Shown here: piece after piece, positions 4,085 through 17,603 of the stretch
How positions within the stretch are numbered: position 1 is the stretch's first letter
How the letters are laid out: every line of letters starts with the position of its first letter
Source of the DNA: a virus
Lineage: Duplodnaviria; Heunggongvirae; Uroviricota; Caudoviricetes
IMG/VR virus record: IMGVR_UViG_2711768068_000022
Strand: one strand, 5' to 3'
DNA: 17,603 nucleotides
Notes under the pieces: generated by a model
Told to the model about the DNA's origin: nothing
What the model saw: the letters and a program-made list of their open reading frames with translations, nothing else
The model's database searches: none
Program-made: the position numbers and the translations under genes

Positions 4085-4424
4085 GCTCGTCCTCTTCTTC
4101 TGTTTCCGGTGGATTTTTACGGCGGCTTATCGGGTCAAAACCGAGCAAAGAGGCCATTTTTATCATCACTCTTTCAGCGTCGGATTTTGCGCTTAATGCG
4201 GGGTTTCTGCTCTCACCGCCCTGACTGTTAACAATGCTGAACCCGCGCGCCGCAAGGTCTGCAACGGCTTTCCGGTAAATGGAGTAGTTGACACAATACA
4301 GTTCCAGATTGCTCCAGTCGGCGGGGGTCAGGTCTCCCCGTTCCGCAAGCTGCCTAGATTTTTCCCGCCACTGCTTCACGGCGATATCATCCAGGTAGGC
4401 GGGGGCTTTCGGTGGTCTTGACAT
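4068..4424 (-). CDS. Terminase small subunit (P27-family-like)
   Basis: 118-aa ORF immediately upstream of and overlapping TerL; size and W..L/C.NY/NPA pattern recall P27-family TerS; no strong SD seen upstream. Confidence 0.7.
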   Translation of the reverse strand: MSRPPKAPAYLDDIAVKQWREKSRQLAERGDLTPADWSNLELYCVNYSIYRKAVADLAARGFSIVNSQGGESRNPALSAKSDAERVMIKMASLLGFDPISRRKNPPETEEEDELDRLE

Positions 4425-4714
4425 GCTTATTTTTTCGCCAGATTATTTTTCAAAAAATTCCCGTGCATAAAAATTTGAGGAGGCGTTCGGTGCCCGGCGG
4501 GGTCGGGTTTGTCCTGAAAACGCCCCCCCACCCCGTCATACAGCCTCATCAGCGATTGCGGAAACATTCCATAACCTCGCGGTCACGGTCGGTTAATCGC
4601 TTCGCTGTGATGCGTTCTGCGCGTCCTGACGCTTTATCTTTATGCCCTGTTTCCTGTGTCTTCCATGCGTCACGCTGCCTTATAAGTCCACGGATAAGGC
4701 GGTTTTGTTCCCGC

Positions 4715-5155
4715 TCATTCATCAGCGTCATACATCCAGTTATTGCGGTTAGCGGCCCGTTCTTCCTCTTCACGAAATCCACCTGCGGCACGCTTGCTTT
4801 TTGTTGCCGGATCAAGCCATTTCGTTTTCTGGTTATGACACGCCTGGCACAATGGTTGATGGTTCCATTCGGGCCAGAAGAGAACATCATCACCGCCATT
4901 AATCGGGATAATGTGATCCACCACCACGGCGGGCGTATATATCCCCTTCTCAAGGCATCGCACGCATAACGGGTTTTTACTCAGATACATGGCGCGGTAT
5001 TTGTCCCACTGTCTGGAATATCCACGCGCGCGGCGGTGTCCTCGTCTGGCATCCTCTGCACGCCATGCCGCCCGCCTGTGCTCCTCACACTTGCCGGATT
5101 TAACGCGCCTGTTACAGCCTGGTTCTGTGCATCGTCTTAATGGTTGCCACGGCAT
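4715..5155 (-). CDS. HNH endonuclease (packaging-associated)
   Basis: 146-aa ORF with Cys pairs and VDHIIP...NHQPLCQACHNQK HNH motif; sits immediately upstream of terS as in HK97-like cos phages; GGGGG SD; start overlaps the upstream gene stop by 1 nt. Confidence 0.85.
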   Translation of the reverse strand: MPWQPLRRCTEPGCNRRVKSGKCEEHRRAAWRAEDARRGHRRARGYSRQWDKYRAMYLSKNPLCVRCLEKGIYTPAVVVDHIIPINGGDDVLFWPEWNHQPLCQACHNQKTKWLDPATKSKRAAGGFREEEERAANRNNWMYDADE

Positions 5156-5451
5156 CAGTACACCCCCACATCACGGTAAGCCGTCCAGAGTGCGCCAATC
5201 GTCATGGGTACGCGTGTTTTTGCGTTATCCGCGACAATCTGGCGATTCTCATACAGGTGAGCGATAAACATCATGCAGCCAATCTTTATGGCTGGCGTGA
5301 ACTCCAGCCCGTCATCAAAGCGCCTGCCTATGTGTATCTGGCACGCCTCAAGCGATGCGGCAATGTATCCGCTGATTAACTGGTCTTCCTCGTCTCCATC
5401 GATACGGCAATGGAGTTTCACTTCTTCCAGGGTGATAAGTTCTTCTGTCAT
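5155..5451 (-). CDS. Head-tail connector protein (gp6-like)
   Basis: 98-aa ORF; N-terminal LITLEEVKLHCRID.DEEDQLI pattern typical of gp6-like connector proteins; ATGA start/stop overlap with the upstream gene. Confidence 0.7.
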   Translation of the reverse strand: MTEELITLEEVKLHCRIDGDEEDQLISGYIAASLEACQIHIGRRFDDGLEFTPAIKIGCMMFIAHLYENRQIVADNAKTRVPMTIGALWTAYRDVGVY

Positions 5452-5786
5452 TTTTCCGCGCCCTCACGACAAAGAATTTCAAGGCGTGTCCTGGCGACAT
5501 CCGGCAACGGCTGCCCGATGATATTCAGTACACGCCCCGCCAGCGGCCCCGTACTGACCTTTATCCGGCTGGTGGCGTTGATGTCCTTCCGGTACCGTAT
5601 CCAGATCCTTACGGTACCAATCGCCAGCTCTACGCCCGATGAAATGGCCTCCTTGCTGCTGATCATGTTCACGCTTGCCCAGAGTGTGTGACCGTCCTCC
5701 CACGTTTCGAGTATTTCGCCCGTCATGGCTCTGGTCTGTTTCAGGGTCTGAATCGTTATCCTGTCACGCAGTCGCCCTATGTTCAT
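5448..5786 (-). CDS. Head closure / head-tail adaptor protein (HK97 gp7-like)
   Basis: ORF in the track runs to 5828; I place the start at the internal ATG 5784-5786 (MNIGRLRDRITIQ...), which has a GAGGGAG SD and forms an ATGA overlap with the portal stop. Pattern RITIQ...W...VWA...IRYR recalls head closure proteins. Confidence 0.65.
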   Translation of the reverse strand: MNIGRLRDRITIQTLKQTRAMTGEILETWEDGHTLWASVNMISSKEAISSGVELAIGTVRIWIRYRKDINATSRIKVSTGPLAGRVLNIIGQPLPDVARTRLEILCREGAEK

Positions 5787-6994
5787 TCCGGTTTTTCTCC
5801 CTCGCTGATTTTTACTTCCTGTTTCCATGCCTGACTGAACTCATCACCACCATCACGCGGTGACAGTCCTTCACGTTCGCGGGCTTCGTTCGGGCACATA
5901 ACGCCGGATTTGATGCCGCGCTCATAGGTGGCAAAGCGTTCGCCAGGTGTGGCCCGTAACAGGTCCGCGCTGTCAAACTCCACCTGATACCGGATACCAG
6001 GTACAGGCGAGGCCACCAGCAGGGCGTTTTTTATCTGCTGCTCAAAGTTCGCCAGCCACGGGCGCATCGTCATGGTGAGAAATGCGCGGCTTGCCTCGCT
6101 GAAATTGCTGTAGGTGCTGTTGCTGTATTCCTGCAAAAAAATCGGCGAGACGTTGAACATTCGGGCGATGTCTTCAATGGTAAAGCGACGGGAGGCCAGC
6201 CATTCAGCATCCTGATTACTCATGCCCAGCTGCTGATAGCTCATCCCCCCTTCAAGGATGGGCGTTTTTCCGGCGTTTCTGGCCCCTTTGTAGCGTTCCA
6301 GTGCGGCTAATGCCTGTTTGCCCTTCACGCCGTCCAGCCATTCGCCTGACGTGATAACCCCTGCCGCCATCATGCCATCACGCATCACGCTCGCGCCGTG
6401 GCGTTGTTGGGCCAGCCCAAGCCCCAGCGATTCGCGGCAGATGGTTACAGGTGAGCGCCCCATAAAGCCGTCATCCGTGGAGTAACGAAGGTGAAGTACT
6501 TCCCACGGTAAATAGTTGTGGGTGTTTCCGGTGTAGGCGTCAGTGATGCAATAGCGCCAGTTGTGTTCGCCTGTCTGCTCCACGTTCACCGACTGCGGCG
6601 GGTAAGGATGTAAAGCCGCCGGAAAACCATCACGCCCCCACTGAATAACCGCATAAGCATTACCGTTTAACAGGCAGTGGCGGATCATCATTCGCTTAAA
6701 CTGGTAGGGGGTTTGCCATGCGTTCGGGCGCTCGTTGAGGATGTGATCGACCGGATGAGAATCAAGCCACTCGCGGGCCTCCTTCCCCTTCTCATTGCGT
6801 ACCAGGTACAGGTAGCATGGCATAGTAGCCACCGCCTCAGAGATGACCGTAACGGCGTTCATGACGGCAGGCAGTGATTCCGCTGTCCCCGATGATACGT
6901 ACTCACCCGCCCCCGTGTTCGATGTGCCAGCCAGCGCCATAAATTCATCAAGCGTCATGCTGCGCTGCTCTTTTTTTCTTCTGAAAGGCCACAT
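5783..6994 (-). CDS. Portal protein (HK97 family)
   Basis: 403-aa ORF, size and position between protease and adaptors; GGGGGTG SD; ATG start. Confidence 0.88.
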   Translation of the reverse strand: MWPFRRKKEQRSMTLDEFMALAGTSNTGAGEYVSSGTAESLPAVMNAVTVISEAVATMPCYLYLVRNEKGKEAREWLDSHPVDHILNERPNAWQTPYQFKRMMIRHCLLNGNAYAVIQWGRDGFPAALHPYPPQSVNVEQTGEHNWRYCITDAYTGNTHNYLPWEVLHLRYSTDDGFMGRSPVTICRESLGLGLAQQRHGASVMRDGMMAAGVITSGEWLDGVKGKQALAALERYKGARNAGKTPILEGGMSYQQLGMSNQDAEWLASRRFTIEDIARMFNVSPIFLQEYSNSTYSNFSEASRAFLTMTMRPWLANFEQQIKNALLVASPVPGIRYQVEFDSADLLRATPGERFATYERGIKSGVMCPNEAREREGLSPRDGGDEFSQAWKQEVKISEGEKPE

Positions 6995-9056: not shown

Positions 9057-9281
9057 TCAGTCCCTGATCCCTTTCAGAAATTCTATCAATGCATCTGTCT
9101 GTTCAGGATTTACCGCCAGCATTTCACCGGATAGCGCGCAACGAACAAAACCATGATGATCCTTTTCAATCAGCGCCCCCGTTTCCAGGAATGCGCGGTA
9201 ATCAGTGATGTTCATCGTCTCCATGTTGTCAGCATGGTATTTATCACGCTGTTTTAATATCTCATCAAATTTCGTCGGCAT
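9057..9281 (-). CDS. Hypothetical protein (74 aa), insulated single-gene cassette
   Basis: Start placed at the internal ATG 9279-9281 with AGAGGAA SD (the track ORF extends to 9359 but would leave no room after the upstream terminator); flanked by two identical terminator hairpins. Confidence 0.55.
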   Translation of the reverse strand: MPTKFDEILKQRDKYHADNMETMNITDYRAFLETGALIEKDHHGFVRCALSGEMLAVNPEQTDALIEFLKGIRD

Positions 9282-9375
9282 TGTTTTTTCCTCTGTTGTG
9301 TCTGTTTGTTTCAGATAGTAACTATGCCGGACCGTGACGAAAAGCCAGTAGTGCGCCATACCATTTCAAATGACG

Positions 9376-9400
9376 CAAAAAAAGCCGGATTGCTCCGGCT
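9376..9400 (-). terminator. Rho-independent terminator (minus strand), copy 2
   Basis: Same hairpin AGCCGGA-ttgc-TCCGGCT (9383-9400) followed on the minus strand by U7; directly downstream of the PerC-like gene stop (9423). Confidence 0.7.
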
Positions 9401-9422
9401 GCGTGGTGTGGTTCTGATATTC

Positions 9423-9671
9423 CTACTCAGCTAATTTGCTCAGCCCCATGTCTGCATAAGTGCGATTTACTGCATTTCTCAGGTCTGCGTAGTTCTCCGT
9501 TGGCGGCTCCGGTGGCCTCTGTGCCTTCCTGGAACATTCCAGCCGTCGCATCGTAACCTGATGCCGTTCCTTGTCTGTCTCCACCAGTTGCATGACTTCA
9601 CCCCATCGCGCCGACGCCCTCCGGTAAAAGCCTTTTGCCTCGAGTTCCTCCGCTATGCGGTCATGTACCAT
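9423..9671 (-). CDS. PerC-family-like transcriptional regulator (82 aa)
   Basis: Start placed at the internal ATG 9669-9671 with GAGGGGG SD, which avoids overlap with the SSB gene; motif AEELEAKGFYRRASARWGEVM resembles the conserved PerC core as recalled. Confidence 0.5.
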   Translation of the reverse strand: MVHDRIAEELEAKGFYRRASARWGEVMQLVETDKERHQVTMRRLECSRKAQRPPEPPTENYADLRNAVNRTYADMGLSKLAE

Positions 9672-9681
9672 CGTCACCCCC

Positions 9682-10092
9682 TCAGAACGGAATACCGTCA
9701 CCGTAAGGGTCATCGCCTCCCGCTGGTGGCTGATTACCCTGTGTGCCTGTGGTTTTGCGTCTGTTCCCGCCTGGACGTGCCGCGCGGGCACTGATTACGC
9801 TGTCTGCAATAACCTGATACCCCTGCCGTGTTTCCCCGTTCTGTCCGGTCCACTGGCTGATCTGCATGTTACCCGCCACGGTCAGGAGTTCACCTTTGCG
9901 GTGCCTTGCCAGTGCTTCGGCCTGTCTGCCAAATGCCAGGACGGATAACCACATCGTCACCGTTCCGTCATCTGCCTGGCTGCACGGAAGGGGGACCGCC
10001 ATACTCGCCATCGTCATTTGTGTGCCCTTGCTGGTGGTCTTTAACTGCGGGTCAGCCACCAGCCGCCCGTAAGCTGCAATTTGTGCTGTCAT
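9682..10092 (-). CDS. Single-stranded DNA-binding protein (SSB-like)
   Basis: 136-aa ORF; OB-fold-like pattern (GRLVADPQL...W..V..FG..AE...KG..L...G.....W) with Gly/Pro-rich tail ending DGIPF, as in the SSB acidic tail; GAGGTGG SD. Confidence 0.7.
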   Translation of the reverse strand: MTAQIAAYGRLVADPQLKTTSKGTQMTMASMAVPLPCSQADDGTVTMWLSVLAFGRQAEALARHRKGELLTVAGNMQISQWTGQNGETRQGYQVIADSVISARAARPGGNRRKTTGTQGNQPPAGGDDPYGDGIPF

Positions 10093-10101
10093 ATTGCCAC
10101 C

Positions 10102-10416
10102 TCAGTGAAGCGATCCGGCGTTGTTCTTTTTCATCTTTTTCATCTCTTCCATCATTTTTTCAGTGAGCATTACGCACTGAAAACCCATTTTTTTGATGTC
10201 TACGGGTTTCATGCCTTTGTCAGTGGATATCACAGGCAGAATATCCTGATACACATCGCGGTCAGGGTAACTAAGCACACAAAGCGCCCATGATGCCACG
10301 GGTGAGGATCCTTCGTCTGTTTCAACCCACCAGCCTGGTGTAGCTGCGCTTATTTGCAGAATCGTGATCCGTCCGTTGTGCTTGTAAAATTTTTCACCAA
10401 ATTTTGGTTCGCTCAT
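10102..10416 (-). CDS. Hypothetical protein (104 aa)
   Basis: ORF with GAGAGGTGG SD and ATGA overlap with the upstream gene; no motif recognised. Confidence 0.55.
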   Translation of the reverse strand: MSEPKFGEKFYKHNGRITILQISAATPGWWVETDEGSSPVASWALCVLSYPDRDVYQDILPVISTDKGMKPVDIKKMGFQCVMLTEKMMEEMKKMKKNNAGSLH

Positions 10417-10664
10417 GATTCCACCTCTCCGGTTTTAACGTTGATGGTTGTTACCTGTTCCGCTTCGGCAATCTCCCGTTCTGTCAGCGTGGCAAAGTTT
10501 GCCGCCGCTGTGGTCATGAATGCGCTTATCAGTTCGGGATGTGCTTTCGCGTATCCTTCCCCCGCGTGGCGGTCTATCGTTCTGATTGCCACCTTTAAGG
10601 CGTGCTCTGTCATGTCTAACGCTTTATATTTTGGCTCTGTTCTGTCTCTGTGTTTTTGAGTCAT
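10413..10664 (-). CDS. Hypothetical protein (83 aa)
   Basis: Start placed at the internal ATG 10662-10664 with GAGGTGG SD; the longer track ORF (to 10796) would translate through the iteron array. Confidence 0.5.
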   Translation of the reverse strand: MTQKHRDRTEPKYKALDMTEHALKVAIRTIDRHAGEGYAKAHPELISAFMTTAAANFATLTEREIAEAEQVTTINVKTGEVES

Positions 10665-10665
10665 T

Positions 10666-10875
10666 TGCCCACCTCTACCCACTTTTTTCGCCCACTTTTT
10701 ACGTTTTCCCACTTCGTCCAACGTGGGAAATTTGGGATTTATATCATCTTGTTTCATAGGTATTTTTTTAGTGCCCACTTTTTGGGATATATGCACGTGG
10801 GAAAGTGGGTAATTTTGTTAAAATTCCGTTAAATCGCCCACCTTTCCCACTTTTAATGCCCACTTTTTACAGTGG
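10666..10875. repeat. Iteron array with central AT-rich segment: putative replication origin
   Basis: About 8 direct copies of CCCAC(T/C)TTT plus inverted copies (ACGTGGGAAA, GTGGGAAAGTGGG) around an AT-rich stretch (about 10735-10770); lies at and just past the 3' end of the replication ATPase gene. Confidence 0.7.
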
Positions 10876-12264
10876 TCCTACATCATCACCGTCAATGTAG
10901 ATCACGTCGTCTTTTTCCAGTTTGGCTAACCATCGTTTAAGGTGTTTTGTGTCATACCCCAGCTTTTTCATATCGTCACGTAACAGCGGGATCGTGCACT
11001 TGTCGCCGTGCTGTGTGCGTGAACGTATGCATCCCCATAGCGCGGTATGGTTTTCCGTCTTGTTGCCTGCCTCCTCGATGCGCTCCAGTTCAACGGGAGG
11101 GCGCGGCTTATCCACCACCACCAGCGACGTGATTAACTCCCCGTCAGCGTCGGTAAAAAGCTCCACCACGCGTAAGTCATATGCGGCTTCTTTGAGTTCC
11201 TCCGCGTCCTTCATTTTGGTGCATGAGATAACCAGCGCTTCGCTTCCTGCGTCCTCCCTGCGTATCCGGTATTCAGCATCCAGCGAAGCACGAAATGCAC
11301 TAGAACCGCGCGCGCCTTTCGTCTCATCCTTGCCGGAATGGTGAACCACCAGCACCGTGGCCCCTGTGCGTCGTTTCAGTTCGTCACAACCACGGATAAA
11401 CGCCCCCATATCACGGGAATCATTTTCATCATTACCACCAAAGCAACGCGCCAGCGTATCCAGAATAATCATGCGAACAGGTTTACCCGTTTCCCTCTCC
11501 ACCTGACGGGCAGCGATAACCATTTCATCAACATCAAGCGGGACCGCCGGAAAGATGGGACGGTTTACCAGATACAGATTTTTCACCTGCTCACCGTGCA
11601 CAACCTCCCAGGCTTTTACACGACGCGGAACGCCGATACCGCCTTCACCAACCACATAGAGAACAGCGCCATGCGCCACCCTGCGGCCTCCCCACTGACG
11701 GCCCGTGGAAACGTGACACGCCCACGAACCCGCAAGGAATGATTTATAGGAACCGCTTGCCCCGTATATGCTGCATAGCGACGATGCCGGAATAATCCCC
11801 TTTACCACGTAATCTAATTGCGTGTCGTATCCGGCAGATCCAACGCTCATCGGTAGCGTGGTTTTTCGCTGGTGGTGTTCTTCCCCTGGCTTTTTCCCCC
11901 GCTCCCGTTCCAGATATTCGCGCCAGTTCTCCCGCTTCTGGCTGTGTATCCCTTCGGGGTAATAATTCGCATCAGTTACGCCCGCCGCCGCCAGCTTGTG
12001 CGCAATGGCATTAATATTTGATGGCCTGATGTGGCCTGCCTTGTACAGCCGGACACAATAGCGCCCCTCGTCGATGATTCTCAGGTCTGCCAGTTCATCC
12101 AGTTGATCATCAGCCAGCACAATGGGAGGCACATTATCGCCAGCCAGTCGCCCGTCCTGTTCCTGCCACTGTTTCGCATGTGCCCACGCATCACTACCCG
12201 CAAAAATGATGACTTCGGTCATCTTGTCGTAAGGCTGTTTTTTTAAGTTCGGTGCGCTTTTCAT
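10867..12264 (-). CDS. Replication protein, RecA-fold ATPase (RepA/DnaB-like helicase/primase-associated)
   Basis: 465-aa ORF; deviant Walker A (YGASGSYKS), Walker B-like MIILDT, and VLVVHHSGKD motif typical of RepA/AAA_25-type replication ATPases; ATGA overlap with the upstream ORF. Confidence 0.78.
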   Translation of the reverse strand: MKSAPNLKKQPYDKMTEVIIFAGSDAWAHAKQWQEQDGRLAGDNVPPIVLADDQLDELADLRIIDEGRYCVRLYKAGHIRPSNINAIAHKLAAAGVTDANYYPEGIHSQKRENWREYLERERGKKPGEEHHQRKTTLPMSVGSAGYDTQLDYVVKGIIPASSLCSIYGASGSYKSFLAGSWACHVSTGRQWGGRRVAHGAVLYVVGEGGIGVPRRVKAWEVVHGEQVKNLYLVNRPIFPAVPLDVDEMVIAARQVERETGKPVRMIILDTLARCFGGNDENDSRDMGAFIRGCDELKRRTGATVLVVHHSGKDETKGARGSSAFRASLDAEYRIRREDAGSEALVISCTKMKDAEELKEAAYDLRVVELFTDADGELITSLVVVDKPRPPVELERIEEAGNKTENHTALWGCIRSRTQHGDKCTIPLLRDDMKKLGYDTKHLKRWLAKLEKDDVIYIDGDDVGPL

Positions 12265-12560
12265 TTCTTGCCCCTGAATCCGTTAATCATGGTTTTCAGC
12301 TTCTGGATGTTTGCCCGTGCCCTGGCGTTGCTGGTGGGCACGTTATGCGGCGCGGTCTGTACCAGAGAAAAATCACGCCGGAACTGATAAACAGGCATCA
12401 CGCAATCATATTCGTAACCTTCACGGCGGTAAGTTACGCACCGTCCCGCCACGCCCTTAATCATTACCGTGCCGCCGTACTGGTCGCGGTAAATATCACC
12501 GCGCATAAATTTAGGGTGAGTGTTGCCACTGGCAGTTAAGCCAGAATATTTAAGTTTCAT
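12261..12560 (-). CDS. Hypothetical protein (99 aa)
   Basis: ORF with GGAGAA SD; translationally coupled to the replication ATPase gene. Confidence 0.55.
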   Translation of the reverse strand: MKLKYSGLTASGNTHPKFMRGDIYRDQYGGTVMIKGVAGRCVTYRREGYEYDCVMPVYQFRRDFSLVQTAPHNVPTSNARARANIQKLKTMINGFRGKK

Positions 12561-12565
12561 TATTT

Positions 12566-12799
12566 TTATTCTCCGGTGTGCTGTTCGTTATATCTGTCGT
12601 GCAATGTCTCTATTTCCTGCAACTCATTTATTACAGGCTCAAGAAGCGTTATTAATGATGTAATAATCCGCGTTTTTTTTGCATTACGTTCATTATCGCC
12701 AAAGGATTCAAGGCACATCCGCAATATTTCGTACATACCTTCAGCGTAAGCAAGGGCACTAAATGCGCGGTCTATTGTTTCAAGATAAATATCACGCAT
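12566..12799 (-). CDS. Hypothetical protein (77 aa)
   Basis: ORF with GAGGA SD; predicted helical; no motif recognised. Confidence 0.5.
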   Translation of the reverse strand: MRDIYLETIDRAFSALAYAEGMYEILRMCLESFGDNERNAKKTRIITSLITLLEPVINELQEIETLHDRYNEQHTGE

Positions 12800-13241
12800 G
12801 GCTTACATCCTCAGGAAATTTTCTTCTGTAACGCGCCTCTGCCACATATTCCGCATAATCGGCGGCGATATTCAGTACATCAAGTCCCGTTGATTTATAT
12901 TCTTTCGTGGAAAGTAAGAAAAAAGCCGCTCTAATAAGTTCTGGCATTGACGAAAGCGCATCAGCCGCATCATCAGGAACGCCGGAAAATTCTTGTTTCA
13001 GGGAATTAAAACGATCATCACGCATAACCCCCCCCCCATTTTCACAATCAGCAACAAGAATATTTTTAGCGTCATTCAGCGACCGCGTTGCGATGTATCG
13101 GATACATTCCAGGGCGAACGTTGTCCGGTCTTTCTGTTCTTCTCCCTGCGCAAGCTCTGCCGTGCATTCAATATCAATAAGCGCGTGCATCAGCGTAGTG
13201 AGCGCGGCGGCGGCTGCGTCCGGTGTGGTTTTATTGCACAT
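12792..13241 (-). CDS. Hypothetical protein (149 aa) containing a G10 homopolymer in-frame
   Basis: Start placed at ATG 13239-13241 with AGGAGG SD (the track gives a TTG start at 13271); the start overlaps the stop of the upstream small paralog. Confidence 0.55.
   Translation of the reverse strand: MCNKTTPDAAAAALTTLMHALIDIECTAELAQGEEQKDRTTFALECIRYIATRSLNDAKNILVADCENGGGVMRDDRFNSLKQEFSGVPDDAADALSSMPELIRAAFFLLSTKEYKSTGLDVLNIAADYAEYVAEARYRRKFPEDVSHA
13028..13037. repeat. Homopolymeric C10/G10 tract inside a coding sequence
   Basis: Ten consecutive C on the plus strand (G10 on the coding strand, encoding NGGGV). Confidence 0.9.
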
Positions 13242-13404
13242 GGCACACCTCCTGACGAATACGGGCGACAAAAATCAGATGTGCGTGCGGCAGCTGTGCA
13301 CGTGCTTCGCGCTCAGTGGCAGCGGTAACGGTGAATATTGCAATACTGTCTGTCAGGCACTGCATAAAGCGCCAGACAAAATAAGGGCGTGTGAATACAG
13401 CCAT
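13231..13404 (-). CDS. Small paralog A (57 aa) of a tandem ORF family; may alternatively be the C-terminus of a longer ORF starting at 13698
   Basis: ATG 13402-13404 with GGAG SD; product shares the motif F(V/L)WRF...TEREAR...ARIRQ with paralog B; the same frame stays open upstream to ATG 13696-13698. Confidence 0.4.
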   Translation of the reverse strand: MAVFTRPYFVWRFMQCLTDSIAIFTVTAATEREARAQLPHAHLIFVARIRQEVCHVQ

Positions 13405-13690
13405 GTGAAAGGCTCCCAGATGAATTTTAAGGAGTCTCGCTACTACGCTGTCAAACATGGTGGCGAGACGTAACAGGGTTGACAGACTGGTCATCTGGAA
13501 ACCAGCGAGCACAAAGGCTCCCCCGTTACGCCCCGCCATAATGCGGGTATGGGTAGGTTTACGGACACAAAAAAACCGCTTATCGGATGTGGGCGGCTGT
13601 CCGCCAGATGTATTCAGGCTGTCAAACCCGGTCGCCATGTGGGCGACGGGGGAAGCATACAGCCCCGTGATAATTTTTTGCAAGCGGTTT

Positions 13691-14248
13691 TTACGCATGA
13701 TGTGACCCCTGACGAATACGGGCGGCGAATACAGCAACACAACCGGACGGGCAACGGCTACGCGCTTCGCGTTCCGTCCAGGCGGTTACGTGGATGATTT
13801 GATGTTCTGACGCGCCAAAGATGATAAAGCGCCAGAGAAAGGCGGTTTGAGAATGTACAAGGGTAGGGATAGTAGCCATGTTGGCAGCCTCCTCAGTGTG
13901 GTTAAGATAACCGCCACCGGAAACGCCAATTTCGCTGGTGGCGGACTGTACAGGGTTGGCGTAACCGGACACTGAAGAAACCGGCGCGGATTGCTCCGCC
14001 CCCGTACAGCCCACCATTGATAAGGTGTGACTATGCGGCACAAAAAAACACGCGGGGCGCGTGTTATGCGCTTCAGTTTTGCCCAGGACGCCAATCCCGG
14101 CACCCGTTTTATGAGGTGCGCGGGAATCATAGCTATTTTCGACACTGGCGATCAACTGGTTTTTTTCTCCGATATTCAGTGCCAGAAAACGCCACACAAA
14201 GGCAGTTTGTGTGTGTACAAGGTGTGGTATATGATTTACAGCAACCAT
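13691..14248 (-). CDS. Hypothetical protein (185 aa) with internal duplication; its C-terminal 62 aa (13691-13879) has its own strong SD and may be translated separately as paralog B
   Basis: ATG 14246-14248 with AGGAG SD and an upstream 5'-UTR hairpin; N-terminus MVAVNHIPHLVHTQTAFVWRF and internal MATIPTLVHSQTAFLWRF (GAGGAG SD) are paralogous. Confidence 0.4.
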   Translation of the reverse strand: MVAVNHIPHLVHTQTAFVWRFLALNIGEKNQLIASVENSYDSRAPHKTGAGIGVLGKTEAHNTRPACFFVPHSHTLSMVGCTGAEQSAPVSSVSGYANPVQSATSEIGVSGGGYLNHTEEAANMATIPTLVHSQTAFLWRFIIFGASEHQIIHVTAWTEREARSRCPSGCVAVFAARIRQGSHHA

Positions 14249-14339
14249 AACGGCTCCTAGTTTACGTTGTTGGTTAGACGCCCTGCATGTGTTGCGAGCA
14301 CTGCGGGGTTTCGTCTTTTCTGTACCTTGCATTAACAAG

Positions 14340-14421
14340 GTGTAAGACACAATGTAAAATAACGGTGTCTTACACGTCAACCCTTCAAAATATTTTTTTT
14401 TCGTGTATATTGTCTTACACC
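14340..14421 (+). promoter_or_regulatory. Operator/promoter region of RHH module 1
   Basis: Perfect 11-bp inverted repeat GTGTAAGACAC (14340-14350) / GTGTCTTACAC (14365-14375), a third half-site TGTCTTACACC (14411-14421), and candidate -35 TTCAAA (14384-14389) / -10 TATATT (14406-14411). Confidence 0.5.
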
Positions 14422-14441
14422 AAAAACATGAGGGGTTAAAC

Positions 14442-14621
14442 ATGGCAACGGGTCCAAAGAATGCAAAATCACAATCTGTAACTGCACGTATTGCCCATGA
14501 AATTATTGAAGGCATGGAGAACGTGAAAGAAGAAGGTGAAAGCACGGGGCAGTTTATAAACGCAGCCATGCGCGGCGAAATCAAACGCCGCCAGCGCCGC
14601 AAGACCAAAGAATCAGAATAA
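14442..14621 (+). CDS. Arc/MetJ-like ribbon-helix-helix DNA-binding protein (59 aa), module 1
   Basis: ATG with GAGGGG SD 6 nt upstream; predicted strand-helix-helix pattern (SVTARIAHEIIEGMENVKEEGESTGQFINAAMRGEI), basic C-terminal tail. Confidence 0.6.
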   Translation: MATGPKNAKSQSVTARIAHEIIEGMENVKEEGESTGQFINAAMRGEIKRRQRRKTKESE

Positions 14622-14625
14622 TCAC

Positions 14626-14670
14626 CATCAGCGCCGTGGCGTGAGGTACTACGGCGCATTGCTTTACAGG
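14626..14670 (+). repeat. Conserved 45-bp intergenic element, copy 1 (hairpin GCGCCG-N15-CGGCGC followed by ATTGCTTTACAGG)
   Basis: Near-identical to 15311-15355 (2 differences) although the flanking coding sequences are diverged. Confidence 0.7.
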
Positions 14671-14678
14671 GCAGTACC

Positions 14679-14906
14679 ATGACCAACAACACACTATCAC
14701 CAATACAAGACACGCAGACGCAAGAAGATGAAATCATTCGGCAAAGGCAGTTAGAAACCTGTGCTCGCCTTGAAGCCGAACTGGCTAATCCTCTGAATAT
14801 CCAACTAATACCGATAGAAATGAAACCTGGACTATTCGCGTTGGAGGCATTTTTAGCAAGCTGCCCACGGCGGCTAAAGTCCCGTAAGAATCGCCCGCCA
14901 GGATGA
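14679..14906 (+). CDS. Hypothetical small protein (75 aa), module 1 second gene
   Basis: ATG 57 nt after the RHH1 stop; weak SD; begins MTN like its counterpart in module 2. Confidence 0.4.
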   Translation: MTNNTLSPIQDTQTQEDEIIRQRQLETCARLEAELANPLNIQLIPIEMKPGLFALEAFLASCPRRLKSRKNRPPG

Positions 14907-15025
14907 GTACACAAAACCGAACTATGAAACGGATTATTCCGTTTCCGGGGCGTTTGTGTGTGTATAAAGAGTAAGCTATGCTCTTTTATAGCCATAATCG
15001 TTACCTCAATTAATGGTTTGGTTAG

Positions 15026-15067
15026 ACGCCCCGTATGTGTTCCCATCACTGCGGGGCGTTGTTTTTT
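15026..15067 (+). terminator. Rho-independent terminator of RHH module 1
   Basis: 8-bp perfect stem ACGCCCCG/CGGGGCGT (15026-15033 / 15052-15059) followed by TTGTTTTTTG. Confidence 0.55.
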
Positions 15068-15083
15068 GTGCTAGTTGTGTGTA

Positions 15084-15099
15084 ATGTGTATATACACAT
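15084..15099 (+). promoter_or_regulatory. 16-bp perfect palindrome ATGTGTATATACACAT overlapping a candidate -10; putative operator of RHH module 2
   Basis: Read directly; sits about 30 bp upstream of the RHH2 start; a second dyad TTGAC-GT-GTCAA follows at 15122-15133. Confidence 0.45.
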
Positions 15100-15126
15100 A
15101 AACACATTATATGGAGTGTAATTGAC

Positions 15127-15306
15127 GTGTCAACACACAAAAATGAAAGGCGTGGTAATCCTCCTTTCCAGTTCCGTTTAGATCCTGACTTACGGGAAAA
15201 GATGGAAAAAGCACAACAACAAGACGGTGATGACTCTTTAGCAGCTTGGATAAAACGAATAATCCGAAAAGAATTACAGCAACGCGGTATTGAACCCAAA
15301 GAATAA
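15127..15306 (+). CDS. Arc-like ribbon-helix-helix DNA-binding protein (59 aa, GTG start), module 2
   Basis: Not in the ORF track (GTG start, under 60 aa); GGAG 10 nt upstream; PPFQFRLDPDLREKMEKAQQQDGDDSLAAWIKRIIRKEL aligns with the P22 Arc strand-helix-helix pattern as recalled. Confidence 0.5.
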   Translation: MSTHKNERRGNPPFQFRLDPDLREKMEKAQQQDGDDSLAAWIKRIIRKELQQRGIEPKE

Positions 15307-15310
15307 AAAA

Positions 15311-15355
15311 CATCAGCGCCGTGGCGTGAGGAACTCCGGCGCATTGCTTTACAGG
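15311..15355 (+). repeat. Conserved 45-bp intergenic element, copy 2
   Basis: Same position (57-nt intergenic gap) and sequence as copy 1. Confidence 0.7.
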
Positions 15356-15363
15356 TACACACA

Positions 15364-15567
15364 ATGACCAATAAAGAATCAACCAATACACCATCGCAAA
15401 AAACGAACAGAGAGCACGAAAATATGGCGCTCGAGCATGAATCAGAAAGATTCGCTCCATGCGCTTTTGTCCTTGATGAGTTTCTAAAAAAATATTCACG
15501 TTCTGAACGGATGAAAATGGCAGCACAATACGGCCCCAACAAGCAAGGTAATTGCCCACCAGCCTGA
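15364..15567 (+). CDS. Hypothetical small protein (67 aa), module 2 second gene
   Basis: ATG 57 nt after the RHH2 stop; weak SD. Confidence 0.4.
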   Translation: MTNKESTNTPSQKTNREHENMALEHESERFAPCAFVLDEFLKKYSRSERMKMAAQYGPNKQGNCPPA

Positions 15568-15641
15568 TAGCGGCTATCATTCCCGTGCTTATGTTTGGGA
15601 TCACATACACATAAGGCGCAGCAGGTTAATTGTTCAGAAAG

Positions 15642-15669
15642 GCGGCTCCATATCGGGGCCGCTTTTTTT
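15642..15669 (+). terminator. Rho-independent terminator of RHH module 2
   Basis: Stem GCGGCTCC/GGGGCCGC (one G-U pair), 5-nt loop, then T7. Confidence 0.65.
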
Positions 15670-15810
15670 ATGCCTGAAAAACCCCAATTTTGTTGTTTTT
15701 CAGTTTCACCAGGGCGAACGAATCCCCGCCCACGTTCGGGCGCATATTCAATCTTCATGGTTATATCTCTGTATTAGTGGATGTGTGGCGACTGTGTGCC
15801 GCCAGTCTTT

Positions 15811-15999
15811 TTAGTGAACTGCCTTGCAGCTATCCTTCCAGGCCAAAACCTCAGATAAAGACCAGCCAACAGAACGCCCACCAAGTTTACGACGTGATGG
15901 GAATTGTCCGGCCTTTTCCAGGCGGTAGCGGCATGAGCGGCTAAGGCCTGTTAGCTTTTCGCATTCTTTTTCACGTATAAACCGATCAGTGCTTAACAC
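15811..15999 (-). CDS. alpA: AlpA-family (phage Xis/MerR-like) transcriptional regulator/excisionase
   Basis: 62-aa ORF, GTG start with AGGGGG SD; motif KLTGLSRSCRYRLEKAGQFP...GGRSVGWSLSEVLAW matches the AlpA family; sits next to the integrase. Confidence 0.8.
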   Translation of the reverse strand: MLSTDRFIREKECEKLTGLSRSCRYRLEKAGQFPSRRKLGGRSVGWSLSEVLAWKDSCKAVH

Positions 16000-16373: not shown

Positions 16374-17603
16374 TTATTTTATTCTGGTTACTGGTAGCGT
16401 GGTTACGTTTTCATGTGTTCCCGCCAGTATCTCCAACCGCTCCACCCACATATCAAGCGCATTGCGTTTCGCATCAATATAGCGGGAATGGTTGTACACG
16501 CGTTGCATTCCTGGCATCTGGTGGCCTGTAAGCTGCTCCACGACGTGAGGATCAACGCCTAAATCGTTCAGCATGGTTGTAAAGGTGCGCCGGATGTCAT
16601 GCAATGACCATTGAGGGTGTTTTAGCCTCCTGTGCGCTAATCTGCCGTACTGCGATACGCTGGTTTCCTGTTTCACTTCCCCCAGCAATAAGCCCGTGTG
16701 CCTGTTCTGCTCCACCAGCTGCGTGACGAACGGCAGTATCGCTTCCGGTATGGGCCGGAATATGGCTACCTTCGTTTTGCTGTGCTCCTTCGGAACGGTC
16801 CAGAGCATTTCGGTAAAATCCCACTCGCCGATCTCCGATAACCTCAGTTCTACTGTTCGGCATCCGAAAACAATCAGGAGGCGGATTAGTGCGACGTAGT
16901 AAGGGGAAAATATTTTTTTGTCCAGTGCCTGCAATAATTCGCCAAGTTCTTTGTTACTTAAGACACGCTCGCTTATATCCGGTTTTTTCCCAACGTCCGC
17001 CACACTCATATCATCAAGAACGTTGCTGATTGCATAGCGCCGCTTCCTGCAGAACTTAAGCGCCTGCTTGCATGTCTGTAGCAGGAACCCGGCGGAAACA
17101 GGGGCTTTCTTTGCCACCCGATCAAAACAGGCCAGCCAGTGCCGTAGCTCGCATTTATCCAGCGGCATAGGGCCAATGTGCTGTATTACGTGATTATTTA
17201 GCCGCTTTTTCAGTGGGTCATAATCCACACGGTTTTCCTTTGCGTACGACTCAAGCCAGTAGGTGAGCGCATCGCCAACCGTTACCGGCTTTAACGCTTC
17301 CTGTACGGTGTAATTCATTTCATGACGTGGATTTTTCCCCTCTGCCAGCCATGCGCGACACTGGGCGGCTTTTTCCCTGGCTGATTTCAGGCTCAGATCA
17401 GGATAATTTCCCAGCTTAATGCGTTCCGGTGGTGCCCCCCTTCCCGTTCCGGCCCTGTAAGTGAAATACCAGGTTAAAAGGCCACTGGTTGAATGCCTGA
17501 CGCTCAGGTTTCCACCGTCATTAAGAAAGGCTGTTTTTTGGGCGGGTGTGCCGTTGATTTTCCTCAGCTGTGTATCGCTCAGTTTGTTAAGTGCTCTGCT
17601 CAT
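16374..17603 (-). CDS. int: Tyrosine site-specific integrase (P4-type)
   Basis: 409-aa ORF; C-terminal catalytic motifs (HDIRRT, LTGH, Y in RVYNHSRY); ATG start is the last three bases of the window, so the adjacent att site is outside it. Confidence 0.92.
   Translation of the reverse strand: MSRALNKLSDTQLRKINGTPAQKTAFLNDGGNLSVRHSTSGLLTWYFTYRAGTGRGAPPERIKLGNYPDLSLKSAREKAAQCRAWLAEGKNPRHEMNYTVQEALKPVTVGDALTYWLESYAKENRVDYDPLKKRLNNHVIQHIGPMPLDKCELRHWLACFDRVAKKAPVSAGFLLQTCKQALKFCRKRRYAISNVLDDMSVADVGKKPDISERVLSNKELGELLQALDKKIFSPYYVALIRLLIVFGCRTVELRLSEIGEWDFTEMLWTVPKEHSKTKVAIFRPIPEAILPFVTQLVEQNRHTGLLLGEVKQETSVSQYGRLAHRRLKHPQWSLHDIRRTFTTMLNDLGVDPHVVEQLTGHQMPGMQRVYNHSRYIDAKRNALDMWVERLEILAGTHENVTTLPVTRIK

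What the first reader, a model, noticed from the sequence alone, without database searches (positions are those of the whole stretch)
13231..14995. Tandem family of small paralogous ORFs on the minus strand, including a truncated fourth copy
Three full copies share an N-terminal M-A...LVH(T/S)QTAF(V/L)WRF motif and TEREAR...ARIRQ tail (starts at 13404, 13879, 14248), each with a strong SD. Two are fused in-frame into one 185-aa ORF. A fourth truncated copy (start 14995, MAIKEHSLLFIHTQT) with the same upstream 5'-UTR hairpin lies antisense to module 1 of the RHH region. In-frame indels between copies argue that these are coding. The function is unknown; repeated small genes in a satellite regulatory region could be helper-interference or anti-repressor-like factors.
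Basis: seen in the sequence. Interest (0 to 1): 0.6.

Follow-up and report, generated by a model that had tools for sequence, protein, structure and literature searches.

The report
Tandem P4-type RNA immunity cassettes
The repeated small genes are the Icd/Kil-type leader genes of two back-to-back antisense-RNA "immunity" switches, of the kind known from phages P4 and P1, that guard the replication genes of a phage satellite; two further copies are leftovers of past recombination.

Summary
The repeat family is real, but it has two intact genes, not three. ORFs 13404-13231 and 13879-13691 (minus strand) are Icd/Kil-like (NCBIfam NF033153). The "copy" at 14248 is a 26-codon 5' remnant of an icd gene that is intact in relatives. 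The copy at 14995 is a 15-codon remnant.

Each intact gene follows a C4/CI antisense RNA (14021-13934; 13543-13456). Each C4 follows a seqA-type target element (isrK 14119-14043; c4-a1b1 13660-13611). Each C4 loop is complementary to the Shine-Dalgarno region of its own icd gene. Across 147 related loci the loop and its target co-vary.

This is the P4/P1 immunity design, present twice with different specificities, upstream of the replication operon of a capsid-forming PICI. The 185-aa "fusion" matches P4 Eta (Pfam Phage_ASH), with Icd2 nested in it as Kil is. That frame stays open in all 17 sequence clusters, yet it shows no codon-position bias over the RNA genes.

The system is a known kind. 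The serial two-specificity arrangement recurs in 17 loci.

Unexpectedly, open frames on this strand also cross the oppositely oriented repressor genes, from alpA to the helicase gene.

The parts
13231..13404 (-). Icd1: intact Icd/Kil-like gene (57 aa), the first gene gated by C4#2. Its stop overlaps the ATG of the next ORF (ATGTGCAATAA, 13241-13231).
   Evidence: NCBIfam NF033153, 53.6 bits; BLASTP to Icd2 E = 2e-10; coordinates checked.
13413..13455 (-). Downstream targets of C4#2: a2 TTTGACAG (13455-13448) and b2 TCATCTGGGAG (13423-13413), which covers the Shine-Dalgarno sequence of Icd1.
   Evidence: Complementary to the C4#2 linker CTGTCAA and loop TTTCCAGATGA. Own-target duplex -28 against -24 kcal/mol for the other cassette's target.
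13456..13543 (-). C4#2 antisense RNA gene (P4 CI / P1 c4 type). Loop b' at 13501-13491, linker a' at 13485-13479.
   Evidence: Rfam RF01695, 72.6 bits (gathering 45); fold -47.0 kcal/mol.
13568..13660 (-). Upstream target element of cassette 2 (c4-a1b1, seqA-like): a1 at 13626-13619, b1 at 13610-13604, followed by a T-run at 13579-13568.
   Evidence: Rfam RF03163, 46.8 bits, only just above the gathering score of 46.7; motifs located; b1 is hypervariable among relatives.
13654..13683 (-). Predicted promoter of cassette 2 (TTGCAA, 18 nt, TATGCT), inside the 3' end of Icd2.
   Evidence: Sequence located. The hexamers are conserved, or replaced by TTGATC/TATGAT, across divergent cassettes. This is a consensus match only.
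13231..13698 (-). Second Eta-like open frame (155 aa). Its ATG overlaps the Icd2 stop (ATGCGTAA, 13698-13691). It runs through a1b1 and C4#2 and ends as Icd1.
   Evidence: The same 8-nt overlap occurs in 37 of 42 such cassettes. PGAP calls the L001 equivalent a 155-aa Icd-like protein.
13691..13879 (-). Icd2: intact Icd/Kil-like gene (62 aa), the first gene gated by C4#1.
   Evidence: NCBIfam NF033153, 57.2 bits; 32% identical to the P4 kil region; 49% identical to the Icd of phage D6.
13888..13929 (-). Downstream targets of C4#1: a2 TTGGCGT (13929-13923) and b2 ACACTGAGGAGG (13899-13888), which covers the Shine-Dalgarno sequence of Icd2.
   Evidence: Complementary to the C4#1 linker ACGCCAA and loop TTTCTTCAGTGT. 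Own-target duplex -40 against -20 kcal/mol for the other cassette's target.
13934..14021 (-). C4#1 antisense RNA gene. Loop b' at 13980-13969, linker a' at 13962-13956.
   Evidence: Rfam RF01695, 77.6 bits; fold -46.9 kcal/mol.
14043..14119 (-). isrK / P4 seqA-like element with an intrinsic terminator (14065-14047). It carries a1 (14094-14088) and b1 (14078-14071).
   Evidence: Rfam RF01394, 66 bits (gathering 50); terminator scan; motifs located.
14126..14155 (-). Predicted PLE-like promoter (TTGATC, 18 nt, TATGAT). Its start site would fall at the isrK 5' end. It lies inside the 185-aa ORF.
   Evidence: Promoter scan, 9 of 12 matches. P4 has the same geometry, with PLE directly upstream of its isrK-like element. 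This is a consensus match only.
14170..14248 (-). Copy 3: a 26-codon 5' remnant of an icd gene (MVAVNHIPHLVHTQTAFVWRFLAL...). It now serves as the N-terminus and start codon of the Eta-like ORF.
   Evidence: Nearly identical to the intact 65-aa icd genes of L008, L010, L011 and L012 up to about 14170. From residue 28 onward it matches P4-type cassettes. Twenty loci share this fusion.
13691..14248 (-). Eta-like nested ORF (185 aa): copy 3, promoter, isrK, C4#1 and Icd2 in one frame.
   Evidence: Pfam Phage_ASH, 63.3 bits, against 82.4 bits for P4 Eta. The frame is open in 17 of 17 cassette clusters. No codon-position bias over the RNA part.
14270..14380 (-). Upstream promoter candidate (14380-14351) and 5' hairpin (14322-14270) that precede copy 3.
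   Evidence: Promoter scan, 9 of 12 matches; repeat D2; fold; a compensatory stem change in relatives, read by eye in the alignment.
14948..15133 (-). Copy 4 unit: consensus promoter (15133-15106, 12 of 12 matches), 5' hairpin (15070-15018), Shine-Dalgarno sequence and ATG 14995, then a 15-codon icd remnant ending at about 14948.
   Evidence: Matches intact icd genes at 72-79% identity only up to about 14948. The stop of the upstream ORF (TGA 15008-15006) lies in its Shine-Dalgarno sequence.
13691..14995 (-). 434-codon open frame from the copy 4 ATG. It runs antisense through RHH module 1 (14403-14906, plus strand), then through copy 3, isrK and C4#1, and ends at the Icd2 stop.
   Evidence: No internal stops. 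Equivalent giant frames of 350-560 codons occur in many relatives.
12792..13241 (-). First downstream ORF (149 aa, phrog_2512, unknown function), translationally coupled to Icd1. It leads into DUF4222 and the RepA-type helicase gene (10867-12264).

Best explanation
The region holds two P4/P1-type antisense-RNA immunity cassettes in series on the minus strand. They lie in front of the replication operon of a capsid-forming PICI-like satellite.

Each cassette has, in order: a promoter; a seqA-type decoy/target element (isrK or a1b1); a C4/CI RNA; a second target that covers the ribosome-binding site; and a small Icd/Kil-like gene.

Inferred mechanism, by analogy with P4 and P1:
- In the quiescent island, the internal promoters make short transcripts that are processed to C4 RNA.
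- Each C4 pairs through its loop (b') and linker (a') with the sites next to it.
- This blocks translation of its own icd gene, so the untranslated transcript is terminated before the replication genes.
- The two C4 RNAs have different loop and linker sequences, so they form two independent locks.

Each icd gene is also the C-terminal end of a longer in-frame ORF that runs across its RNA genes (185 aa and 155 aa). This matches P4, where kil is nested in eta. Ribosomes that start upstream (ATG 14248, or further up at 14995) translate straight through both locks. That would make transcripts from upstream promoters insensitive to immunity.

Copies 3 and 4 are 5' stubs of icd genes, left when regulatory cassettes were exchanged by recombination within the conserved icd 5' end. 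Their start codons have been kept as entry points into that open frame.

Shown here: the RNA genes, the family memberships, the complementarity and its covariation, the open frames and the stop-start overlaps. Inferred: RNA processing, termination and the bypass by translation.
For: RNA genes and protein families:
- Rfam C4 twice, isrK and c4-a1b1, all above their gathering scores.
- NCBIfam Icd-like for both intact ORFs.
- P4 itself shows the same order: isrK-like element, C4 and a 65-aa kil that aligns with Icd2.
- P4 Eta (197 aa) and the window's 185-aa ORF both match Pfam Phage_ASH.

Complementarity:
- Exact complementary sites are listed.
- Across 18 C4 genes compared (16 cluster representatives plus the window's two), own-target duplexes average -30.5 kcal/mol against -21.2 for cross pairs. 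The own target ranks first for 12 of 18.
- The loop and Shine-Dalgarno sequences visibly co-vary, for example UUUCCUGUAACG with CGUUACAGGAGG and UAUCCUGUGAAG with UUCACAGGAGG.
- 104 C4 genes carry 26 different loops and 36 loop-linker combinations. All 17 double loci carry two different specificities.

Reading frames:
- The frame in phase with icd is open across seqA, C4 and the spacer in 17 of 17 clusters. The +1 frame is open in 5 of 17 and the +2 frame in 0 of 17.
- That stretch shows no codon-position bias (105/102/104), whereas icd genes do (47/50/69).
- Stop-start overlaps link the ORFs.

Literature:
- PMC10111431 summarises P4: PLE lies inside eta, Kil is a truncated Eta, Eta translation prevents termination, and C4/isrK hits occur in Gram-negative PICIs.
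- PMC4825925 and PMC3632133 equate isrK with seqA and C4 with CI.
Against: - There are no expression data for this island. The promoters are consensus matches only: 9 of 12 for two of them, and 8 of 12 by my count for the cassette 2 promoter, which is why the scan did not list it.
- The c4-a1b1 hit is only 0.1 bit above its gathering score.
- RNAduplex energies discriminate weakly. Unrelated 25-nt windows elsewhere in the window reach -29 kcal/mol.
- In Gifsy-1, the homologous isrK RNA activates rather than represses translation of the downstream ORF (PMC4825925).
- Many related islands (57 loci) have an icd gene but no C4 within the DNA held, about 1.5-2.5 kb on each side of icd. The RNA lock is therefore dispensable in this family.
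- Open frames prove the absence of stop codons, not translation.
Confidence: 0.82

Rival explanations
1. The small ORFs are independent effector proteins, such as helper-interference, anti-repressor or toxic factors. They were amplified as a gene family because of what the proteins do, not as translational gates.
For: - Icd genes show third-position excess, and ten columns are invariant across a divergent set that includes P4 Kil. The peptides are therefore under protein-level selection.
- From established knowledge: P4 Kil kills cells when over-expressed and P1 Icd blocks cell division.
- 57 loci carry an icd gene without any C4.
Against: - Every intact copy in the window sits exactly behind a C4 RNA whose loop is complementary to its Shine-Dalgarno sequence, and the pair co-varies across loci.
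- The copies are translationally coupled to the next ORF.
- There is no similarity to antirepressor families.
- Copies 3 and 4 are too short to encode the conserved C-terminal half.
Confidence: 0.12
2. Copies 3 and 4 and the long in-frame ORFs are neutral scars. Recombination between islands left icd 5' stubs, and the frames are open by chance or by descent. Only the two short icd genes and the RNAs are functional.
For: - All 20 loci with the copy 3 fusion fall into one sequence cluster, which is consistent with a single event.
- In L001 and L012 the frame upstream of the copy 3-type ATG is open for only 78 nt, so the 434-codon frame of this window is not conserved as such.
- Long antisense ORFs also occur opposite the 149-aa ORF.
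Against: - The frame through seqA and C4 is open in 17 of 17 clusters despite more than one change per site.
- P4 eta is, according to the literature, experimentally functional (PMC10111431, citing Forti 1999).
- One fixed antisense phase is open in 25 of 27 lineages of the opposite-strand genes, against about 11 expected from synonymous resampling.
- 95% of the stretch from alpA to the Icd stop is covered by same-strand ORFs, against 57% in a control.
Confidence: 0.3
3. The cassettes work as in Gifsy-1. The short isrK RNA acts in trans to open an inhibitory mRNA structure and activate translation of the downstream ORF. The module would then be an inducer rather than an immunity lock.
For: - The isrK match is full length and includes its terminator (66 bits).
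- PMC4825925 shows this mechanism for a homologous isrK-orf45-anrP locus and notes a processed C4-like RNA (STnc1160) downstream of isrK.
Against: - The downstream genes here are replication genes, as in P4, and not an antirepressor.
- The gene order and the nested eta/kil layout match P4.
- The second cassette has the P1-type a1b1 element, not isrK.
Confidence: 0.12

Closest known systems
Satellite phage P4 immunity region (PLE, seqA, CI RNA, seqC, nested kil/eta, upstream PLL and vis)
   Same: - Same order of elements on one strand. Rfam isrK and C4 both hit P4.
- The 65-aa P4 kil aligns with Icd2.
- P4 Eta (197 aa) and the window's 185-aa ORF both match Pfam Phage_ASH and both contain the RNA genes in frame.
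- The promoter lies directly upstream of the seqA-like element.
- Replication genes lie downstream.
   Different: - There are two cassettes in series with different specificities. P4 has one.
- The N-terminus of the Eta-like ORF is a recycled icd 5' end rather than a sequence coupled to vis.
- One or two divergent RHH (YlcI/YnfO-type) gene modules sit between alpA and the cassette, and the open frame crosses them in antisense.
- The host element is a capsid-forming PICI-like island, not a P4-like satellite.
Phage P1/P7 immI operon (a1b1, c4 RNA, a2b2, icd, ant)
   Same: - The second cassette carries the Rfam c4-a1b1 element and a C4 RNA.
- The target covers the ribosome-binding site of an Icd-like gene that is coupled to the next gene.
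- Icd2 is 49% identical to the Icd of P1-like phage D6.
   Different: - The gene coupled to icd is not an antirepressor. It is a 149-aa protein of unknown function, followed by replication genes.
- The cassette is embedded in an Eta-like open frame.
Gifsy-1 isrK-orf45-anrP locus of Salmonella
   Same: An isrK RNA with its terminator, a downstream processed C4-like RNA, and a small ORF coupled to the next gene (PMC4825925).
   Different: There, isrK activates an antirepressor operon in a lambdoid prophage. Here the layout and the downstream genes follow P4.
Bro-zone immunity RNAs of Gram-negative PICIs (Mageeney et al. 2023, PMC10111431)
   Same: That paper reports C4 and isrK hits inside Phage_ASH/Bro-network genes of PICIs and proposes that they provide immunity.
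   Different: In the text I read, it does not describe tandem cassettes of different specificity, icd-stub fusions, or open frames crossing opposite-strand repressor genes.

Membership tests
P4/P1-type C4 (CI) antisense-RNA immunity cassette | A C4/CI RNA gene with the family's sequence and structure. | tested here: met
   Rfam RF01695: 77.6 and 72.6 bits, gathering score 45, full-length matches.
P4/P1-type C4 (CI) antisense-RNA immunity cassette | An upstream target element (seqA/isrK or a1b1) complementary to C4. | tested here: met
   isrK 66 bits (gathering 50). c4-a1b1 46.8 bits (gathering 46.7, borderline). The a1 and b1 motifs are complementary to a' and b'.
P4/P1-type C4 (CI) antisense-RNA immunity cassette | A downstream target (seqC/a2b2) that covers the ribosome-binding site of the first translated gene. 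| tested here: met
   b2 sites at 13899-13888 and 13423-13413 include the Shine-Dalgarno sequences. Loop and Shine-Dalgarno sequences co-vary among 17 clusters.
P4/P1-type C4 (CI) antisense-RNA immunity cassette | C4 is released by processing, and pairing causes premature (Rho-dependent) termination. | not testable with these tools
   Needs RNA and transcription experiments.
P4/P1-type C4 (CI) antisense-RNA immunity cassette | A constitutive promoter directly upstream of the seqA-type element. | tested here: inconclusive
   Consensus matches at 14155-14126 (9 of 12) and 13683-13654 (8 of 12 by my count, so not listed by the scan). The hexamers are conserved among relatives. There are no transcription data.
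NCBIfam NF033153 phage_ICD_like (Icd/Kil-like protein) | Score above the curated cut-off of 25 bits. | tested here: met
   Icd1 53.6 bits and Icd2 57.2 bits. Copy 3 alone (123 aa) has no hit. Copy 4 (32 aa) was scanned only against Pfam, with no hit. Neither is a member in its own right.
P4 eta/kil nested-gene arrangement (Pfam PF10554 Phage_ASH) | A long ORF that starts upstream of the internal promoter, contains seqA and CI in frame, and ends at the kil stop codon. | tested here: met
   The 185-aa ORF scores 63.3 bits and P4 Eta 82.4 bits (cut-off 26). The frame is open in 17 of 17 clusters. A second 155-aa frame has the same layout but no Pfam hit.
P4 eta/kil nested-gene arrangement (Pfam PF10554 Phage_ASH) | Translation of the long ORF from an upstream regulated promoter makes transcription insensitive to immunity. 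| not testable with these tools
   Reported for P4 only, as summarised in PMC10111431.
Capsid-forming PICI (cfPICI) | An island with int, alpA and replication genes plus its own capsid, protease, portal and large terminase, but no tail genes. | tested here: met
   Pfam finds integrase, AAA_25 helicase, capsid, S78 protease, portal and TerL. The alpA ORF is at 15811-15999. No tail gene was found among the ORFs scanned, but the small ORFs at 4068-5828 and 9057-10796 were not scanned. Helper dependence is not testable here.
Gifsy-1 IsrK activator module | isrK followed by a small ORF coupled to an antirepressor gene (anrP). | tested here: not met
   isrK is present. The coupled genes are a 149-aa protein of unknown function and replication genes. 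No antirepressor family was hit.

The most novel reading that the evidence does not exclude
The in-frame chain of copy 4, copy 3 and Icd2 may be part of a selected, nearly gap-free translation track. The track would run from just after alpA (ORF 15758-15006), through ATG 14995, then in antisense across the RHH repressor genes, through both RNA locks, and on to the helicase gene (10867).

This would be a much extended form of P4 eta. Transcripts from the helper-induced alpA promoter would be kept covered with ribosomes. They could then cross convergent repressor genes and two immunity locks without Rho-dependent termination. The icd stubs would be retained as re-initiation points.
Probability: 0.4. 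Interest if true: 0.65.

Novelty: new variant of a known kind. Interest (0 to 1): 0.42.

Why it matters
Fillol-Salom et al. 2018 (PMC6092414) state that it is unclear whether Gram-negative PICIs have a global repressor. This locus shows a complete P4/P1-type RNA immunity system in such an island, present twice with different specificities.

Related islands carry at least 36 loop-linker combinations. This suggests diversifying selection for immunity specificity among competing satellites.

If ribosome traffic along the conserved open frames is what lets alpA-driven transcripts pass the locks and the opposite-strand repressor genes, that would explain how AlpA induction reaches the replication genes. 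It would also be a clear case of reading frames kept open for the act of translation and not for the protein made.

There is a practical point too. PGAP labels such as "ash family protein, pseudogene" and long "Icd-like" proteins in these islands mostly describe translated RNA genes.

Tried and rejected
- **Phage_ASH as a spurious family.** I first took the 185-aa ORF and the Pfam family to be artefacts of translating isrK and C4. I gave this up as a full explanation when the frame proved open in 17 of 17 clusters and P4 Eta matched the same family. It remains true that the amino-acid sequence over the RNA genes shows no coding signature.
- **A third C4#1 target inside copy 3.** The site at 14194-14169 gave -29.3 kcal/mol, the best on the transcript. 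A scan of the whole window gave unrelated sites at -28.9 and -28.8, so the site is not distinguishable from background.
- **Genome collection scan.** A scan with the 123-aa copy 3 ORF returned only 5 loci. Viral and metagenome scans with an Icd alignment were far more productive.
- **Greedy ORF-chain algorithm.** With tight start windows it failed on the 52-nt gap after alpA. I replaced it with a coverage measure.
- **A closer intact parent of copy 4.** None was found in complete E. coli genomes. The best intact icd genes are only 72-79% identical.
- **Forti et al. 1999 (PMC94026).** The paper could not be read. Its content is cited through PMC10111431 and from memory.
- **No Pfam or PHROG family** matches the parts of the long ORFs that lie antisense to the RHH genes.


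Full report
**1. What is in the sequence**

On the minus strand of 13231-15050 there are four Shine-Dalgarno-preceded starts, at 13404, 13879, 14248 and 14995. Their products share an N-terminal (L/I)(V/I)H(T/S)QT motif, which runs on as AF(V/L)WRF in the copies at 13879 and 14248. The copy at 13404 keeps only the FVWRF part.

Two of them are complete small genes:
- Icd1 (13404-13231, 57 aa).
- Icd2 (13879-13691, 62 aa).

They are 43% identical (BLASTP E = 2e-10). Both match NCBIfam NF033153 "host cell division inhibitor Icd-like protein" (53.6 and 57.2 bits, cut-off 25).

The start at 14248 opens a 185-aa frame that ends at the Icd2 stop. Its own Icd-like part covers only the first 26 or so codons. 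The start at 14995 has 15 Icd-like codons.

**2.

Rfam places four RNA elements on the same strand:
- C4 antisense RNA at 14021-13934 (77.6 bits).
- C4 antisense RNA at 13543-13456 (72.6 bits).
- isrK at 14119-14043 (66 bits).
- c4-a1b1 at 13660-13611 (46.8 bits, only just above threshold).

Each intact icd gene is thus preceded by a target element and a C4 RNA.

Phage P4 has the same order: an isrK-like element (P4 seqA), C4 (P4 CI RNA), and a 65-aa ORF that aligns with Icd2. Icd2 is also 49% identical to the Icd of P1-like phage D6. PMC3632133 and PMC4825925 state that isrK and C4 are the structural homologues of P4 seqA and CI.

**3. Context**

The window is an island next to phoQ. It carries an integrase (16374-17603), alpA (15811-15999), a RepA-type helicase (10867-12264), a capsid gene, a prohead protease, a portal and a large terminase. 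This is the gene set of a capsid-forming PICI.

Between alpA and the cassettes, two plus-strand modules encode small RHH-type proteins. The first gene of module 1 is YlcI/YnfO family and that of module 2 is Arc-like.

The cassettes sit directly upstream of the replication operon. The Icd1 stop overlaps the next ATG, and the following ORFs overlap or abut down to the helicase gene.

**4. Evidence that the RNAs act on these ORFs**

| Cassette | C4 loop (b') | Target over the Shine-Dalgarno sequence | C4 linker (a') | Linker targets |
|---|---|---|---|---|
| 1 (Icd2) | UUUCUUCAGUGU, 13980-13969 | ACACUGAGGAGG, 13899-13888 | ACGCCAA | UUGGCGU in isrK (14094-14088) and after C4 (13929-13923) |
| 2 (Icd1) | UUUCCAGAUGA | UCAUCUGGGAG, 13423-13413 | CUGUCAA | UUUGACAG at 13626-13619 and 13455-13448 |

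Each C4 prefers its own target: -40 against -20 kcal/mol, and -28 against -24.

I assembled 147 related loci. In them I found 104 C4 genes with 26 different loops, 13 linkers and 36 combinations. Loop and Shine-Dalgarno sequences change together. Own-target duplexes average -30.5 against -21.2 kcal/mol for cross pairs, and the own target ranks first for 12 of 18 C4 genes compared.

The energy scan on its own is weak evidence, because unrelated sites in the window reach -29 kcal/mol. The covariation is the stronger argument.

**5. Coding or not**

Icd genes show an excess of third-position change: 47/50/69, 42/44/68 and 31/34/67. Several residues are invariant as far out as P4 Kil. They are therefore protein-coding.

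The stretch of the long ORFs that overlaps seqA, C4 and the spacer shows no codon-position bias: 105/102/104 and 88/93/80. Its sequence is shaped by the RNAs.

Even so, the frame in phase with icd is free of stop codons across that stretch in 17 of 17 sequence clusters (101 cassettes). The other two frames are open in 5 and 0 clusters.

This matches what is reported for P4. There, kil is nested in the 197-codon eta, PLE lies inside eta, and translation of eta from the upstream late promoter prevents termination (PMC10111431, citing Forti 1999). I confirmed that the 197-aa frame is open in P4. P4 Eta and the window's 185-aa ORF both match Pfam Phage_ASH (82.4 and 63.3 bits).

The "in-frame fusion" is therefore the eta/kil design. 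A second one follows: ATG 13698 overlaps the Icd2 stop (ATGCGTAA) and opens a 155-aa frame through a1b1 and C4#2 into Icd1. The same 8-nt overlap is present in 37 of 42 comparable cassettes.

**6. Origin of copies 3 and 4**

In relatives L008, L010, L011 and L012, the hairpin, the Shine-Dalgarno sequence and the first 26 or so codons of copy 3 are nearly identical. There they belong to an intact 65-aa icd gene (MVAVNHIPHLVHTQTAFVWRFLALSAGESQIIHVTAWTEREAR...). That gene directly follows the promoter. L008, L010 and L012 have no C4 at all, and L011 has none upstream of this gene.

In the window, homology switches at about 14170 to a P4-type promoter-isrK-C4 cassette. Copy 3 is therefore a recombination junction. 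Twenty loci share it.

Copy 4 matches intact icd genes only to about 14948. In L008 the same RHH module 2 is followed by an intact icd gene. Copy 4 is therefore the stub left when module 1 and its icd start were inserted.

Architectures among the 147 loci:

| Architecture | Loci |
|---|---|
| icd alone | 57 |
| icd-C4-icd | 38 |
| C4-icd | 29 |
| icd-C4-icd-C4-icd (this window's type) | 9 |
| C4-icd-C4-icd | 8 |
| other (C4 alone 4, icd-C4 1, icd-icd 1) | 6 |

In all 17 double loci the order is isrK-type cassette and then a1b1-type cassette, with different specificities. The pair is thus a stable combination of two old lineages, not a recent duplication.

**7. Most likely mechanism**

Internal promoters are predicted at 14155-14126 and 13683-13654. 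By inference, they produce the seqA-type RNAs and C4 in the resting island. Each C4 then blocks its own icd ribosome-binding site, and untranslated transcripts terminate before the replication genes. This gives two locks in series.

Transcripts that start upstream carry ribosomes from ATG 14248 (or 14995) straight through both locks, as P4 late-promoter transcripts do through eta.

Shown here: the elements, their complementarity and covariation, the open frames and the overlaps. Inferred: RNA processing, termination and the bypass. The Gifsy-1 alternative, in which isrK activates translation, cannot be excluded without experiments.

**8. An unexpected extension**

The copy 4 ATG opens a 434-codon frame that runs antisense through RHH module 1 to the Icd2 stop. 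Upstream of it, a 250-aa ORF (15758-15006) lies antisense to module 2. That ORF starts 52 nt after alpA, and its stop lies inside the Shine-Dalgarno sequence of ATG 14995.

In relatives:
- One same-strand frame is open across the whole opposite-strand module in 118 of 126 loci.
- In 62 loci that frame runs on to an Icd stop, giving frames of 350-560 codons that begin at the alpA stop.
- The RHH genes are themselves coding: 102/95/142 and 56/35/82.
- One fixed antisense phase is stop-free in 25 of 27 lineages below 80% identity. About 11 are expected from synonymous resampling. The summed log10 P is -10.7 if lineages are treated as independent.
- The stretch from the alpA stop to the Icd stop is 95% covered by same-strand ORFs, against 57% for a control strand.
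- These parts match no protein family.

The exact 434-codon frame is not conserved as such. It is not open in L001 or L012. The track is kept in different ways in different islands.

Helper phages induce alpA, and AlpA activates its own promoter and island replication (PMC6092414). A ribosome-covered transcript from alpA to the replication genes is an attractive reading, but it is unproven.

**9. Verdict**

The finding is real. Its core is a known system: P4/P1 C4-RNA immunity with Icd/Kil and Eta-like nested genes, already noted in PICIs by PMC10111431.

Three things appear not to have been described:
- the serial arrangement of two specificities;
- the re-use of icd stubs as starts of the Eta-like frame;
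- the conserved open frames across opposite-strand repressor genes.

Interest is moderate.

Noticed in passing
window 10867-15758, minus strand; related loci such as L019:364-1689, L033:64-1689 and L053:487-1677: ORFs on the icd strand form a nearly gap-free chain from just after alpA to the helicase gene. The chain includes long frames antisense to the RHH repressor genes. One frame is open across the opposite-strand module in 118 of 126 loci. One fixed phase is stop-free in 25 of 27 lineages, against about 11 expected.
   Followed up: partly
window 13883-14131, minus strand; Pfam PF10554: The Pfam Phage_ASH match (PGAP: 'ash family protein', often flagged as a pseudogene) coincides with isrK plus C4. 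This stretch shows no codon-position bias (105/102/104). The family's conservation therefore reflects RNA genes, with only the openness of the frame retained.
   Followed up: yes
related loci L015-L146 (C4 genes): Immunity specificities are very diverse: 26 loop sequences, 13 linkers and 36 combinations among 104 C4 genes. The b1 site is hypervariable in otherwise near-identical cassettes, which suggests diversifying selection.
   Followed up: partly
window 14270-14322 and 15018-15070: Read on the plus strand, the repeated '5' UTR hairpins' are stem-loops followed by T-rich runs. They could be intrinsic terminators for plus-strand transcription entering each divergent promoter region. By eye, the alignment shows a compensatory stem change in relatives (ACGCCCCG/CGGGGCGT against AAGCCCCG/CGGGGCTT).
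   Followed up: no
window 14615-14689 and 15300-15374: A 75-nt repeat, 84% identical, lies between the first and second gene of each RHH module. It contains a GCGCCGT...ACGGCGC hairpin just before the ATG of the second gene.
   Followed up: no
window 14169-14194, minus strand: Inside copy 3, UGGCGU...CACUGAA resembles the a1/b1 sites of isrK and gives the best C4#1 duplex on the transcript (-29.3 kcal/mol). Unrelated sites elsewhere in the window score almost as well.
   Followed up: yes
L008, L010, L012, L013 and 53 other loci: Many related islands have the promoter, the hairpin and an intact icd gene, but no C4 or isrK within the DNA held, about 1.5-2.5 kb on each side of icd. They must control the same operon differently, presumably through the divergent RHH proteins.
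   Followed up: partly
GenBank LR881103.1 (Escherichia phage vB_KppS-Ant, 16,548 bp): A 16.5-kb record deposited as an induced prophage encodes an Icd-like protein 50% identical to Icd2. Its size is typical of a capsid-forming PICI, not of a phage.
   Followed up: no
phage P4, NC_001609, 8168-8584 (L004): The RefSeq record still annotates a 137-aa 'cI gene product / transcriptional repressor' CDS. That CDS spans the CI RNA gene and kil.
   Followed up: partly
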